From the NCBI GenBank assembly GCA_037379345.1, contig CM074515.1, positions 8,990,001-9,054,000 on the forward strand: a DNA stretch of 64,000 bases, written 5' to 3'. Below, piece after piece: positions 39,801 to 45,800 of this stretch; positions within the stretch are counted from its first letter, which is position 1; each line of letters begins with the position of its first letter. Made by a program: the position numbers. Source of the DNA: Perna viridis. Its lineage: Eukaryota.

Positions 39801-42800
39801 TTTTTGTGACTACAATTTCACTCTGAAAACACATTGGGTATTTTACGGCACATTTGGCCTTCATATGCTATATTTTCTTACCCTAAATCTACCACAGGGT
39901 CACATACATGTAAATAGAATATTGGTTGTTAAATTGAGTCTATATTTTCCTGACCAACACTGGATATTCATTCAAAATATCTTGAAAACATTGTGTATTT
40001 ACTATAATCGTCTTGTGAACATCTATCATGCTGAGAATATTTGCCAACTAAACTGTTAATCATATAATGGCTAGTCCTTTATAATCAATAGTAGTACTTA
40101 TCCTAAAAAGTAAAGTTTGAATTACTCACAAAAAAGTTTTGTTTAATACTCTAATATAAAGTAGATTGTACATGTATTATACAAACCATATATTATGTTC
40201 CCTGGCCATCTGATCTTTGTTGATAGAATCTAGAACTTCCTGACAAGCCCAGTCACTCCACTCACAGAACACTTTCAGTTTCAGGTTTCTTTCATAATAT
40301 CTACGAGCTCTTCCTTCCATTATTGTTGTATGGTGTTTAAACTGTTTTATATTGAAAATTAAGAACAGATTTTTTTTAGACTAACTGTTCTAAGAAAGAA
40401 CTCATAACCAAATTTTTTTTTAAGACACATTTTCAAATTTTACTCTTGAAAATTACATGGAATCTATGCATTATAATAAATGTAAAGCCAGTTTTGTTTA
40501 ATGCTGGCGTTAATTTAATTACAGTACTGTCTATAGAAAAAGCTAGATTTAAAGCAGCTAACATAATATGACCATTGAGTGTGCTATATCTGAGTTCAAT
40601 ATAGAAAACAAATATGAACTAAAATGTTATATCAAGTACCAAAAATAGTAATTGTAAATTCAGAAATCAATGCAAGTTTGCCATTTTAGACGAAAATGCA
40701 TTAAATTATTTAGAGATATCCCCCCAAAAATTGCTGAATTCATGTTTAAAATTCCATAATGTGAGTTCTCTTTATTGAAAGAGCAATCAAGGGAACCAAG
40801 GTTATAGCGGTAATCAAAAGAATGTAATCCAGGGACAAAGACCAGACATGGAAAACAGACATACACAACAAAGATCATAAAGTAACTAAAATCATACATA
40901 CAAAGTAACAAAAGTCAAAAGTAAATGAGCAACTTGGACTCCACTAAAAACTGGGATCATGGACCAGGTGTACTGGTAGGGTAAGCATCCTAAAGACACA
41001 TTGAAAGAGGAAGTAGCAAATGTTGTTACACTACATATACAGAATTGATATTGGACAGAAATACTGACCATAACACCACACATCTAAGATGCAATCAATC
41101 TTTATAGTGGGAGCCAAGAGTTTTGCAATGAAAGATGATTATATTTACAACCTAGTCCAATTTTCACATAAACTTCTGAAAATATAAAATAAAATTCCAC
41201 ATTAAACTTACATTTCTCCAGTTTGCAAATGACCTTTTCACAATCAAATATTTGTACATATTGTCTGCAAGTTTCTCTTTCTGCGTTCTAACATACTGTA
41301 CATAATCAAACCAGGCCCTGAAGATGTGCCTATAAAGAATGGTTTATATATTCTATCAACATACTGTACGTAATCAAACCAGGCCCTGAAGATGTGCCTA
41401 TAAAAAATGGTTTATATATTCTATCAACATACTGTATGTAATCAAACCAGGACCTGAAGATGTGCCTATAAAGGGTGGTTTATATATTCTATCAACATAT
41501 TGTATGTAATCAAACCAGGCCCTGAAGATATGCCTATAAAAAATGGTTTATATATTCTATCAACATACTGTACGTAATCAAACCAGGCCCTGAAGATGTG
41601 CCTATAAAAAATGGTTTATATATTCTATCAACATACTGTATGTAATCAAACCAGGACCTGAAGATGTGCCTATAAAGGGTGGTTTATATATTCTATCAAC
41701 ATATTGTATGTAATCAAACCAGGCCCTGAAGATGTGCCTATAAAAAATGGTTTATATATTCTATCAACATACTGTACGTAATCAAACCAGGCCCTGAAGA
41801 TGTGCCTATAAAAAATGGTTTATATATTCTATCAACATACTGTACGTAATCAAACCAGGCCCTGAAGATGTGCCTATAAAAAATGGTTTATATATTCTAT
41901 CAACATACTGTATGTAATCAAACCAGGACCTGAAGATGTGCCTATAAAGGGTGGTTTATATATTATATCAACATATTGTATGTAATCAAACCAGGCCCTG
42001 AAGATGTGCCTATAAAAAATGGTTTATATATTCTATCAACATACTGTACGTAATCAAACCAGGCCCTGAAGATGTGCCTATAAAAAATGGTTTATATATT
42101 CTATCAACATATTGTATGTAATCAAACCAGGCCCTGAAGATGTGCCTATAAAAAATGGTTTATATATTCTGTCAACATACTGTACATAATCAAACCAGGC
42201 CCTGAAGATGTGCCTATAAAGGGTGGTTTATATATTCTATCAACATATTGTATGTAATCAAACCAGGCCCTGAAGATGTGCCTATAAAGAATAGTTTATA
42301 TATTATTTTATCAACATACTGTATGTAATCAAACCAGGTTCTGAAGATGTGCCTTAAAAGAATGTAATCAAACCAGGACCTGAAGATGTGCCTAAAAAGA
42401 ATGGTTTACATATTTTATCAACATACTGTATGTAATCAAACCAGGCCCTGAAGATGTGCCTATAAAGAATGGTTTATATATTATTCTATCAACATACTGT
42501 ATGTCATCAAACCAGGCCATTGAAGATGTGCCTATAAAGAATGGTTTACATATTCTATCAACATACTGTATGTAATCAAACCAGGACCTGAAGATGTGCC
42601 TATAAAGAATAGTTTATATAATCTATCAACATACTGTATGTAATCAAACCAGGCCCTGAAGATGTGCCTATAAAGAATGGTTTACATATTCTATCAACAT
42701 ACTGTATGTAATCAAACCAGGCCCTGAAGATGTGCCTTTAAAGAATGGTTTACATATTCTATCAACATACTGTATGTAATCAAACCAGGACCTGAAGATG

Positions 42801-45800
42801 TGCCTATAAAGAATAGTTTATATATTCAACATGCATTAACAGGTTAGTTTTATTTTGAACAACAAGTAATATGCCAGAAACTGCTTGAAAATTTAGTTGT
42901 ATTGAAGTGTAACATAAAAGTTTCCAATTCCTATGCTATTAAAACTTACATTAGTTTAAACTCATAATAACAACTAGAATCGCTGTAAGCAAGCTCACAT
43001 AGGAATACCCCTGCTTCAAGTAGACACATACACCATGTTTAAAAAAAGAAAGAGCACATGGTCAAATTTGTATATGATTTCATTCTCCATTTTGTTATTT
43101 TATGAGATCATTGGTAATTTTGTTTTCTTACCTTTTAATCAGAAATTTATGATGAGCTAAAGCCTTCAGTTCATTTTTCTTTGCCATGTCTGCTAGCCTT
43201 TTGAATGGTAACAATCCTCGGTATTTCATGATAGACCTCTGGTAGTGGGTATCTGCCTTTGAATTCAGCTGTTTCAATCTCTCTTCCCTTTGTTGTTTTT
43301 CTAACTCTTTCTGTCAAAAAATGTCAAATAGATTTAAATGAATATATACACATACTAAAAATATTTATCTCATTTAAGCAATTTGTTCTGATTACTACAC
43401 AGATAATCACAGATTAAGACAGACCTGGGTTTCATAAAATTCTAAAAATGAGAAAATCTTAAAATCTTTAATTAAAAGCCATCAAATTAGTCAAAATTTT
43501 AATTAAGGATAGACTGAAAAAATTCTCAGTTGGAGTAAGAATTCCCTGTTGCTAAAAATAAAGTGTAAATAAAGGTAATAAATCTTACTTGTTTTTCTAA
43601 TTTCTTCTTTTCTCTGTAAGCTTCAGCTTTTGCTCTTCTTTCTGCTTCTAATTCTTGTTTCCTCATTTCTTCCTCTTCTTCTAATTGTTTCTAAAATAAA
43701 CAATCACTTCAGTGAGAATGGTTGCAGATTATGTTTAGAAATTGGAAAAATAGAGATAATTTGCTTAGAAACAATAAATCACCGAGCTGTATATAAGGGT
43801 ATAACACACAACACCAAAACTTTGGGTTTCTGTAGTTACTTTTATTTACCAGTTTTTCTTCCTCAGCTTGTCTCCTTTTTTCCTCCCTTTCAGCTTTAAT
43901 TCTGGCTCTTTCTGCTGCTCTTTCATCCATATCTATTAATCAAAACAATACAATTCTCTACTGATCAGAGTATATCACTGTAATACTAACATCTACATTA
44001 TGTTCTAATGCAGAATTCCTGTTCTCATAGAAATTTTCCAACATATAACAACCTATTTTCAAAAGTTTTTCAGTTACTTCAGTATCTTCAAAAGCATTTT
44101 TTATCATTAAATCTGCAGTCTGGCTAAGCTAAGCATGACAGTTCCAAAAGCAAATACAAATCTTTAACAAAATAAAAAAAAATATAGAAATTTTAATTAT
44201 GATTATTGGTCTATGATAGTCCAAAGACAAGCACTTTCCTGGTGTCCACACAATCATTTAAATATAAGTGCACTGGTCCAGTGAAATGTCTATTTACTGC
44301 CTTTTGGTTTTTAATATTCAGAATATTAATGCTTTACCCAAAGTTCCCACCACGAAATATAATAGTGCTTACTGGCAAAACAAAGTGTAGGGTTTTAACC
44401 AAAAATAGAAGACAGTTTTCTCCAAGCCAACAAAATAAAAACAGCTCCAGATTTCTACCTATATATGTGTTCATTATTTACTCCTTAAATTATTGAAAGC
44501 TGACCCAAAATGACTTACCAATCATTAAAAAATGTGACAACTAAATACATCATTATTATATGTTAACCATAAATTGTAAGCACTTGTCTGACCATATCTA
44601 ACATAATTTATAGAAATATTTTCACCTGATCTTTAAGGATTCAAACTATCATCAATGTCGTTTTTTGGATTAAATAATTTGTGCTAAAGTTTAGATCAGA
44701 TTTCATGAACTGATTGTAATTTAATGTACTTTTAAGTTAATCCTAGGTAGCATATGTATAAACAATATACATATCAACAATGCGGACATCTTATTGTTTT
44801 GTTTGATTTAACTTTTTAAATACGCCAAAACTAGTCATAGGTTGTTCACAGGCAAGGAAGGAAGTTAATGCTAACCTAACTATACTATGTTCTTAATGTA
44901 AAATAAACACCTTACATGGAGTTGGTAGAATATGATGCAACACAACATTTTTCATCAAAATAATGCCATAGGAACTAAAGGTACATGTAGTTACAGATCT
45001 AGCAGTAATTGAATTGAAAAGTACAGCATTAAACATTATAAAAGAACAGCGTTCCAATGTTCCCCACGAAAAAAAAGTGAGGAAAAAAGTCCAAAGGCCA
45101 TAAATTCCATAAAAATCAATCAACCCTAATCAAAAAGGAAATTAATCTGTAACATCTCATAGTAAGACTACATACAAAATATAAAATCAACTGGTGAAAG
45201 CATTACAAAAAAAGTGTGGAAAACTCTTAATTCACGGAAATTTTCTAAGTTAAAAATCATTCAACCGTAACCAAAGTCAAACTTAATCTGTAACTCTTCA
45301 TAATAAGGCCACATACCAAAAACAAACTTATTTGGTTGAAGCATAACCAAAAAAAAAGTGCGGACGAACGGACAGCTGGCATTTCCATGTTGCCTCACAA
45401 CGCGTCAAGGGGGACAAAAATGGCACTGTAAGATACTGATAAATTGTGCAAGCACCAGAAAATCATTTCTCTTGTACAGGTAATACATACAATGATAAAA
45501 GAGGTAAAGTAAATAGTCCACATTAAATAGCCTACACTCACTATAGTTTAAATCTTACTTTTAAGCATTTGTACATATCTAGTATTAGATTTGGTACTGC
45601 TCTCTGACCTTTCAGTCACTGAACTACTTGTTGTCCTAGCCGTGTCTGGAATAACAGTGTTTACAGTTTTATTCTTCACAGTATTATTCTTTTTGTTCTG
45701 ACTCGTGTGTTGACCTGCAGAAGCTGGTCTTGATACTTTAGATGACTTTGAGCTTACTGATACGGCTGACTGATCATCAGTATCATGCCTAGGAACAGAT

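What the first reader, a model, noticed from the sequence alone, without database searches (positions are those of the whole stretch)
42770..42850. Only consensus branch point lies before the outermost copy: possible intron gain in progress
Seen: CTAAC (- strand, 42847-42843) sits about 40 nt upstream of the distal AG (42805-42804) and is outside the repeated unit. The complete exon follows only the innermost copy, 1.5 kb away, which has at best a weak TAAAC. Inference: the ancestral acceptor context is now the distal copy. A productive mRNA may therefore need exon 42803-42771 plus a new ~1.44-kb intron (42770-41330) built entirely of repeat, adding 11 aa. Intron gain by tandem duplication is a proposed mechanism with few clear examples.
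Basis: partly seen in the sequence, partly recalled or inferred. Interest (0 to 1): 0.7.

Follow-up and report, generated by a model that had tools for sequence, protein, structure and literature searches.

The report
Splice-acceptor minisatellite in a mussel CCDC191 gene
A 68-base stretch spanning the start of one exon of a bivalve CCDC191 gene has been copied 23 times in a row, giving 22 spare splice acceptors; the described anatomy is real, but nothing shows that a new exon and intron are needed or used.

Summary
CTAAC is at 42847-42843 on the minus strand, 40 nt before the outermost AG and 11 nt outside a 1,543-bp array (42832-41290). The array has 23 copies of a 68-bp unit: 35 nt of intron tail plus the first 33 nt of an exon.

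The host gene is a CCDC191 orthologue whose closest named relatives are Mytilus proteins. The array crosses the acceptor of its antepenultimate coding exon.

The argument that a productive mRNA needs an extra 33-nt exon and a 1,441-nt intron is weak:
- 10 of 12 other acceptors in this gene lack CTAAC.
- Copies 2-23 each carry a yUnAy motif (TTGAT; TTGAC in one) 26-29 nt before the AG (15 nt in the truncated copy 8), plus the same pyrimidine tract.
- The proposed GTATGT donor is the weakest of 13 donors by U1 pairing.
- None of 150 relatives has an 11-residue duplication at this junction.

No transcript or protein of this species was found, so splicing is untested. My best reading is a young minisatellite of decoy acceptors, with the innermost acceptor giving the conserved protein. 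In-frame microexon inclusion remains possible as a minor isoform. Close precedents are the potato RdRp intron gain and the human F7 IVS7 minisatellite.

The parts
43132..43310 (-). Upstream coding exon ('exon C'), ending ...HHKFLIK plus two bases of an R codon
   Evidence: tblastn of Mytilus coruscus CCDC191 (P0151) and P0001 against the window gave 72-77% identity. Boundaries were read.
43126..43131 (-). Donor of exon C (AAG|GTAAGA)
   Evidence: 8 of 9 consensus matches. U1 duplex -9.5 kcal/mol, second strongest of 13.
42833..43131 (-). Unique, non-repeated 5' part of the intron
   Evidence: Not part of any tandem-repeat row.
42843..42847 (-). CTAAC, probable ancestral branch sequence, 40 nt before the outermost AG
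   Evidence: It is the only CTAAC in 41000-43200, with no AG between it and 42805.
41290..42832 (-). Minisatellite of 23 copies of a 68-bp unit (35 nt intron tail + 33 nt exon start). Includes one 39-bp truncated copy, 71- and 72-bp copies, and one copy with a 1-nt insertion.
42804..42805 (-). Outermost acceptor AG (copy 1)
42771..42803 (-).
   Evidence: Its exon part is identical to that of copies 4, 14, 18 and 21.
42765..42770 (-). Candidate donor GTATGT of copy 1. The same motif is present in 17 of 23 copies; 5 copies have ATATGT and 1 is truncated.
   Evidence: U1 duplex -2.9 kcal/mol, weaker than all 12 inferred donors of the gene.
42498..42531 (-). Copy 5 exon part with a 1-nt insertion, giving a frameshift and in-frame stops
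42354..42391 (-). Copy 7, truncated (39-bp spacing to copy 8), with no donor motif
41355..41359 (-). TTGAT, a yUnAy branch candidate for the innermost acceptor (A 26 nt before the AG). A yUnAy motif occupies this position in copies 2-23 (TTGAC in copy 11; 15 nt before the AG in the truncated copy 8).
   Evidence: The only AG downstream of it lies 2 nt after the branch A.
41330..41331 (-). Innermost acceptor AG (copy 23), the one contiguous with the full exon
41212..41329 (-). Full exon ('exon D', 118 nt), HIFRAWFDYVQ...SFANWRN, followed by donor AAT|GTAAGT
   Evidence: tblastn 72-75% identity to P0001 and P0151. In the 40-aa search the identity was 77-85%. An unnamed genomic ORF, P0119, shows the same exon limits.
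40186..40341 (-). Next coding exon (FKHHTTIMEGRARRYYE...)
   Evidence: 81% identity.

Best explanation
A young minisatellite was born across the 3' splice site of the antepenultimate coding exon of a CCDC191 orthologue in a mytilid-like bivalve.

A 64-68-bp segment was first duplicated between two ATGTT microhomologies. It comprised about 30 nt of intron tail, with the pyrimidine tract and AG, plus the first 39 nt of the exon. It then expanded to 23 copies by slippage or unequal exchange, most recently in blocks of three units.

The result is 22 decoy acceptors upstream of the real one. I infer that the productive mRNA is made by splicing the upstream exon's donor (43131) directly to the innermost acceptor (41330). 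That splice would use a branch point inside the last repeat unit (TTGAT at 41359-41355) and exon definition from the strong GTAAGT donor 118 nt downstream. The protein then keeps a single copy of the 11-residue unit.

Decoy use would mostly give transcripts with premature stops, or minor in-frame +33-nt isoforms.

Shown: the array, its origin from the exon/intron boundary, the host gene, and the single-copy state in relatives. Inferred: which acceptor is used.
For: Array anatomy
- 23 copies at 68-bp spacing; the unit occurs nowhere else in the window.
- Copies 15, 16, 19 and 22 are identical, as are 13 and 17, and 18 and 21. This is a three-unit higher-order pattern and points to recent expansion.
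- ATGTT is present at both breakpoints: the intron at 42832 and the exon at 41294-41290.

Host gene
- Named CCDC191 proteins of Mytilus coruscus and M. trossulus are the best hits.
- They align exon by exon over 56579-36266.

Splice signals
- Copies 2-23 carry TTGAT (TTGAC in copy 11) with the A 26-29 nt before the AG, except the truncated copy 8, where it is 15 nt before. Pyrimidine content is 0.61 in 20 of the 23 copies, the outermost and innermost included (0.67 in copy 7, 0.72 in copy 8) (checked again for the outer and inner copies).
- 10 of 12 other inferred acceptors of the gene have no CTAAC 10-60 nt upstream. Several have TTGAT at 20-43 nt.
- The decoy donor ACA|GTATGT matches 6 of 9 consensus positions. 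Its U1 duplex energy is -2.9 kcal/mol, against -4.1 to -10.3 for the 12 inferred donors.
- The shortest inferred intron of the gene is 159 nt, against 35 nt between adjacent decoy units.

Protein conservation
- Among 150 relatives whose best match covers the junction, 137 have no gap, none has an 11-residue insertion, and none has a tandem duplicate there.
- The W inside the unit is invariant in 46 aligned orthologues.
- The unit lies in a predicted continuous helix with pLDDT about 97-98.
- The innermost copy keeps the A and V seen in all four mytilid-like relatives: P0001, P0151, P0152, P0119. The outermost copy has S and I.

Precedent
- In human F7 IVS7 a minisatellite repeats the donor, and only the exon-adjacent site is used (PMC1557585, abstract read).
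Against: - No RNA evidence of any kind was available, and no protein or transcript of this species was in the searched sets.
- The outermost acceptor has the best branch sequence (CTAAC at -40). It is also the first to be transcribed and the nearest to the donor (327 nt). By general knowledge of splice-site competition, all of this should favour it over the innermost copy.
- In F7 the site used is also the most upstream one. A 5'-to-3' rule would therefore pick the outermost acceptor here, not the innermost.
- The decoy donor matches the consensus as well as the 4 weakest of the 12 inferred real donors.
- Exon-derived parts of the regular copies vary less than intron-derived parts: 4 of 33 sites against 10 of 35, mean pairwise difference 0.037 against 0.073. 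This could hint at constraint on the decoy coding pieces, although the copies are not independent.
- Six decoys also carry the A and V alleles, so that argument is weak.
- The acceptors and donors used as controls are inferred from protein alignments, not from RNA.
Confidence: 0.55

Rival explanations
1. The upstream exon is spliced to the outermost acceptor (42804) because only it has the ancestral CTAAC branch point. The 33-nt piece 42803-42771 becomes a new microexon, and 42770-41330 is removed as a new 1,441-nt intron. The main protein therefore gains 11 residues (exon-plus-intron gain by tandem duplication).
For: - All required signals exist in the right order and frame.
- CTAAC is 40 nt before the AG with no AG between, and it is over-represented before acceptors of this gene: 3 of 13 contexts against about 0.4-0.6 expected (my arithmetic).
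- The donor matches 6 of 9 consensus positions, like 4 inferred real donors.
- An 11-residue insert would lie inside one long predicted helix. It would extend that helix by about three turns rather than break a fold (inference).
- Precedent in potato RdRp, where RNA-seq confirmed such an intron (PMC4974935, abstract and Results read).
Against: - Its premise fails. 10 of 12 other acceptors lack CTAAC, and every later copy has its own yUnAy and tract.
- The donor is the weakest of 13 by U1 pairing.
- The exon would be only 33 nt.
- The copy-1 donor must still skip 21 equivalent acceptors, including copy 3, which lies a workable 103 nt away.
- A chain through alternate copies hits the frameshifted copy 5.
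- None of 150 relatives has such an insert, and the duplicated W is invariant.
Confidence: 0.12
2. Heterogeneous, largely unproductive splicing. Several of the 23 acceptors compete, giving a ladder of isoforms with zero, one or several 33-nt microexons and many transcripts with premature stops that are degraded. This haplotype would then be a weakened, probably polymorphic allele of the gene.
For: - There are 23 near-equivalent acceptors.
- 15 of the 22 decoys are intact in-frame 33-nt units with GTATGT. Five have no GT, one is frameshifted and one is truncated.
- Read-through of the 68-bp unit meets a stop within about 49 codons.
- Identical copies indicate ongoing expansion.
Against: - The gene is conserved from cnidarians to vertebrates, so a crippling allele should be selected against.
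- The human F7 minisatellite shows that repeated splice sites can be fully silent (PMC1557585, abstract).
- No RNA data either way.
Confidence: 0.23
3. Assembly artefact. The array, or most of its length, does not exist in the genome, and the true locus has one or a few copies.
For: Tandem arrays of near-identical units are error-prone in assemblies. Four copies are identical to each other.
Against: - The copies differ in a structured way: three-unit higher-order pattern, one truncated copy, 71- and 72-bp copies, one 1-nt insertion, 92-93% matches. That is not what stutter or a collapse gives.
- Other intronic minisatellites lie in the same gene.
Confidence: 0.07

Closest known systems
Intron gain by tandem duplication across an intron-exon boundary: potato RdRp gene (Ma, Lan & Niu 2016, PMC4974935; abstract and Results read)
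   Same: The duplicated segment crosses the 3' end of an intron and the 5' end of the next exon. Branch site, pyrimidine tract and AG are inherited with the copy. A cryptic GT in the formerly exonic part could serve as the new donor.
   Different: Potato has two copies and 106 RNA-seq reads across the new junction. Here there are 23 copies of a much shorter unit, the candidate new exon is only 33 nt, and there is no RNA evidence.
Human F7 IVS7 37-bp minisatellite spanning the exon 7-intron 7 boundary (Borensztajn et al. 2006, PMC1557585; abstract read)
   Same: A minisatellite whose terminal unit spans an exon-intron boundary, so that the authentic splice site is followed by identical pseudo-sites. 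It is a natural test of splice-site choice.
   Different: F7 repeats the donor, and the site used is both exon-adjacent and most upstream. Here the acceptor is repeated, so the exon-adjacent site is the most downstream one. The two selection rules therefore give opposite predictions.
Rogers-type intron gain by duplication of an AGGT-containing exon segment (Hellsten et al. 2011, PMC3265369, abstract read; Lehmann et al. 2010, PMC2891723, abstract read)
   Same: A tandem duplication supplies both a GT and an AG in one step.
   Different: In that model the duplicated piece is purely exonic and the mRNA is unchanged. Here an existing acceptor is duplicated, and use of the new intron would add 33 nt of coding sequence.

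Membership tests
[quoted passage not shown] | A tandem duplication within the gene whose source sequence is identified | tested here: met
   The 68-bp unit is the intron tail plus the exon start, in 23 copies.
[quoted passage not shown] | The duplication supplies a GT donor and an AG acceptor bounding a spliceable interval, with the reading frame kept | tested here: met
   GTATGT at 42770 and AG at 41331-41330. The extra exon is 33 nt and has no stop.
[quoted passage not shown] | The new intron is actually removed from mature RNA | not testable with these tools
   No transcript or read data were available, and no protein of this species was found.
[quoted passage not shown] | Phylogeny shows that the intron and extra segment are absent in relatives | tested here: inconclusive
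   0 of 150 relatives has an 11-residue duplicate at the junction, and three close relatives have one copy. The relatives' genomic introns could not be read, and this species' mRNA is unknown.
Minisatellite spanning an exon-intron boundary with silent pseudo-splice sites (F7 IVS7 type) | A tandem array of a 10-100-bp unit whose terminal unit spans the boundary, so that the authentic site is repeated | tested here: met
   The innermost unit runs into the exon as far as 41290.
Minisatellite spanning an exon-intron boundary with silent pseudo-splice sites (F7 IVS7 type) | The pseudo-sites stay silent and only the exon-adjacent site is used | not testable with these tools
   Needs cDNA.
Minisatellite spanning an exon-intron boundary with silent pseudo-splice sites (F7 IVS7 type) | The repeated site is the donor | tested here: not met
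   Here the acceptor is repeated. This is a mirror-image variant, not the same arrangement.
CCDC191 orthologue (host gene) | Colinear similarity to named CCDC191 proteins over the gene | tested here: met
   Named Mytilus CCDC191 proteins are the top hits. 13 colinear tblastn segments at 42-91% identity. Residues 1-38, 199-229 and 273-302 of P0151 were not located.
Sfi1-type centrin-binding repeats | Match to the Pfam Sfi1 model or to solved Sfi1p | tested here: not met
   No Pfam family for the exons, P0001, P0151, P0152, P0170 or P0172. The alignment profile against the PDB hits Sfi1p (2doq_D) only at E = 0.035. One source labels the Lottia protein as Sfi1-domain.

The most novel reading that the evidence does not exclude
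The array works as a copy-number-variable cassette of in-frame 33-nt microexons. Transcripts would include the outermost unit, or several non-adjacent units. Each adds an 11-residue block, with the family's invariant tryptophan, to a long helix. Exon and intron gain would then be caught in progress, and protein length would vary with minisatellite allele.
Probability: 0.12. Interest if true: 0.6.

Novelty: new member of a known kind. Interest (0 to 1): 0.3.

Why it matters
If the decoys are silent, this is an ordinary intronic minisatellite that happens to cross an acceptor.

It is still a useful natural test of 3' splice-site choice. Here 'nearest to the exon body' and 'first transcribed, best branch point' point to opposite ends of 23 near-identical sites. 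In the human F7 donor-side case the two rules coincide.

If the microexon is used, it would add a many-copy animal example to the few documented intron gains by tandem duplication.

Either way, such an array can mislead gene prediction at this locus.

Tried and rejected
Searches for the gene family
- Pfam on nine exon-bearing reading frames and on five homologues found nothing above cut-off.

Searches for this species' own protein or transcript
- The upstream exon searched alone against longer proteins returned only P0001, from an unnamed source.
- The downstream exon searched alone returned only P0151, P0152 and P0001.
- Source names and cluster members could not be looked up because the database was off.

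Collections
- The prokaryote-only genome collection was not used because it cannot hold this locus.
- The orthologous introns of other bivalves therefore stayed unchecked.

Other readings of the unit, all rejected
- A known RNA family: Rfam gave no match in the window.
- A dispersed mobile element: the unit occurs only in the array.
- A structure looping out the array: only trivial 15-nt inverted matches.

Sfi1 idea
- A weak lead only.

Literature
- Searches for an acceptor-side minisatellite, or for rules on duplicated acceptors, listed no such case. I saw listings only, so this is not proof of absence.
- One search was rejected for a bad character.
- CCDC191 appears in 21 papers; the 12 listed have it in neither title nor abstract, and none was opened.
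- Supplementary files were not consulted.

Fold search
- Not run, because the model is a single long helix and would match anything.
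Full report
**The observation**

On the minus strand, CTAAC lies at 42847-42843 and is the only CTAAC between 41000 and 43200. Its branch A is 40 nt before the G of the AG at 42805-42804, with no AG between. A tandem array follows: period 68, 92-93% matches, Tandem Repeats Finder scores 1841 and 798.

Anchoring on the exon start finds 23 copies of an acceptor, with the G of the AG running from 42804 to 41330.
- 18 of the 22 spacings are exactly 68 bp.
- The others are 72, 39 (a truncated copy) and 71 bp, plus one 68-bp spacing that contains a 1-nt insertion.

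Each unit is 35 nt of intron tail ending in AG plus the first 33 nt of the exon. Homology runs from 42832 to 41290.

The 33-nt exon piece matches 22 times with up to 3 mismatches, all inside the array, against none in 100 shuffles. The unit is therefore local, not a dispersed element. The window has no N.

42803-42771 is 33 nt and reads HIFRSWFDYIQ in frame. 42770 begins GTATGT, and 42770-41330 is 1,441 nt.

**The host gene**

Searching the upstream exon alone found one spliced relative, P0001 (387 aa, unnamed source). Searching with P0001 found named CCDC191 proteins, led by Mytilus coruscus (P0151) and M. trossulus (P0152). 293 relatives were found in the representative library.

tblastn of P0151 and P0001 places 13 colinear segments on the minus strand from 56579 to 36266. 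The array sits between the exon at 43310-43132 and the exon at 41329-41212, which is the antepenultimate coding exon.

Two unnamed genomic reading frames, P0063 and P0119, show the same intron positions in a related genome.

No Pfam family matches. A profile of 46 orthologues hits yeast Sfi1p only at E = 0.035. CCDC191 appears in 21 papers; in the 12 listed it is in neither title nor abstract (listing only).

The joined, spliced model was neither built nor searched.

**Origin and age of the array**

Both ends of the unit carry ATGTT: in the intron at 42832 and in the exon at 41294-41290. This fits slippage or unequal exchange at a microhomology (inference). Repeat junctions carry four extra bases compared with the unique intron tail.

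Copies 15, 16, 19 and 22 are identical, as are 13 and 17, and 18 and 21. Together they form a three-unit higher-order pattern. The inner half is therefore very young.

The structured variation argues against an assembly artefact.

Three other intronic minisatellites lie within about 50 nt of splice sites of the same gene. Such arrays are common here. This one differs only in crossing a boundary.

**Is the outermost copy needed?**

Evidence against that premise:
- Among 12 other acceptors of this gene, inferred from the protein alignments, 2 have CTAAC 10-60 nt upstream and 10 do not.
- Copies 2-23 carry TTGAT (TTGAC in copy 11), a yUnAy match, with its A 26-29 nt before the AG (15 nt in the truncated copy 8). 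Where an AG follows the motif, in 18 of these copies, it lies 2 nt after the branch A, which by general knowledge is too close to be used. Pyrimidine content is 0.61 in 20 of the 23 copies, the outermost and innermost included (0.67 in copy 7, 0.72 in copy 8) (outer and inner copies rechecked).
- Other exons of the gene have TTGAT at 20-43 nt as their best candidate.

Evidence that CTAAC still matters:
- It is enriched before acceptors here: 3 of 13 contexts against about 0.4-0.6 expected (my arithmetic).
- It is therefore probably the ancestral branch point. The outermost acceptor is probably the strongest single site, and it is also the first to be transcribed.

**The proposed donor**

ACA|GTATGT matches 6 of 9 consensus positions, the same as the 4 weakest of the 12 inferred donors.

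Its duplex with the 5' end of U1 is -2.9 kcal/mol, below all 12 (-4.1 to -10.3). This is a rough measure using a recalled U1 motif.

Of the 22 decoys:
- 15 are intact in-frame 33-nt units with GTATGT.
- 5 have ATATGT.
- 1 is frameshifted, with stops.
- 1 is truncated.

Adjacent units leave only 35 nt between donor and acceptor, against 159 nt for the shortest inferred intron of the gene.

A donor in copy 1 would have to pass 21 equivalent acceptors to reach copy 23. Stepwise use of alternate copies reaches the frameshifted copy 5. Unspliced read-through meets a stop within about 49 codons.

**Relatives**

P0001, P0151 and P0152 each have one copy of the unit.

Of the 178 proteins stored at that point, 162 gave a match and 150 have a best match covering the junction. 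Among those 150:
- 137 have no gap.
- 10 have insertions of 16, 4, 26, 3, 1, 1, 1, 2, 1 and 2 residues.
- 5 have deletions (two of them also among the insertions).
- None has an 11-residue insertion or a tandem duplicate there.

The tryptophan inside the unit is invariant in 46 aligned orthologues. The unit lies in a predicted continuous helix (residues 134-371 of P0001), where pLDDT is about 97-98.

The innermost copy keeps A and V, as in the four mytilid-like relatives. The outermost copy has S and I, but six decoys also keep A and V.

Against my reading, the exon-derived parts of 17 regular copies vary less than the intron-derived parts: 4 of 33 sites against 10 of 35. I excluded six irregular copies (1, 5, 6, 7, 8, 9) from that count.

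**Verdict**

The anatomy is confirmed. The array is best read as a young minisatellite of decoy acceptors. The conserved mRNA is most likely made from the innermost acceptor (about 0.55). The rivals are:
- heterogeneous, largely unproductive splicing (about 0.23),
- an assembly artefact (about 0.07).

No RNA data, no protein of this species and no bivalve genome collection were available. The key question stays open.

**Known precedents**

- Potato RdRp: a duplication across an intron-exon boundary made a new intron with a cryptic exonic donor, confirmed by 106 RNA-seq reads (PMC4974935, abstract and Results).
- Human F7 IVS7: a 37-bp minisatellite repeats the donor, and the pseudo-sites are silent (PMC1557585, abstract).
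- The duplication model itself (PMC3265369 and PMC2891723, abstracts).

My searches listed no acceptor-side minisatellite of this kind (listings only). This locus is a new member of a known kind, of modest interest until cDNA is examined.

Noticed in passing
window 55626-55999 (minus-strand gene, intron before the acceptor at 55584): A second minisatellite in the same gene: 50-bp unit, about 7 copies, 84% matches. It ends about 42 nt upstream of an acceptor. The last unit supplies that acceptor's TTGAT branch candidate at -43.
   Followed up: partly
window 46809-46988 and 48411-48898: Two more intronic tandem arrays in the same gene (33 bp x 5.5 and 155 bp x 3.1). Each begins about 40-50 nt downstream of an inferred donor (47027 and 48949).
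   Followed up: no
window 40775-40991, with copies near 7615-7824, 61001-61272, 24170-24297, 16365-16500, 13177-13264, 25457-25596, 10776-10832: A dispersed repeat of about 220 bp (81-99% identity, both orientations) lies in the intron after exon D and at least seven other places in the window. It is probably a short non-autonomous mobile element. At 61132-61272 it is partly tandem.
   Followed up: partly
window 54933-51236 and 51116-49132: Residues 1-38, 199-229 and 273-302 of the Mytilus coruscus protein were not located by tblastn. Small, charged-residue-rich exons probably lie unmapped in these long intervals and upstream of 56579. The M. trossulus protein has a 30-residue extra segment at the third position, suggesting an alternative exon.
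   Followed up: no
P0001 residues 134-371 (equivalent to window exons from about 43932 to 36263): The C-terminal third of the protein is predicted as one uninterrupted helix of about 240 residues, with tryptophans spaced 30-31 residues apart. There is a weak, non-significant profile match to yeast Sfi1p (E 0.035).
   Followed up: partly
window 719-1576, 9772-9816, 33051-33457: Other low-identity 21-45-bp tandem arrays and a (CT)22 microsatellite. The first 35 kb of the window was not otherwise examined.
   Followed up: no
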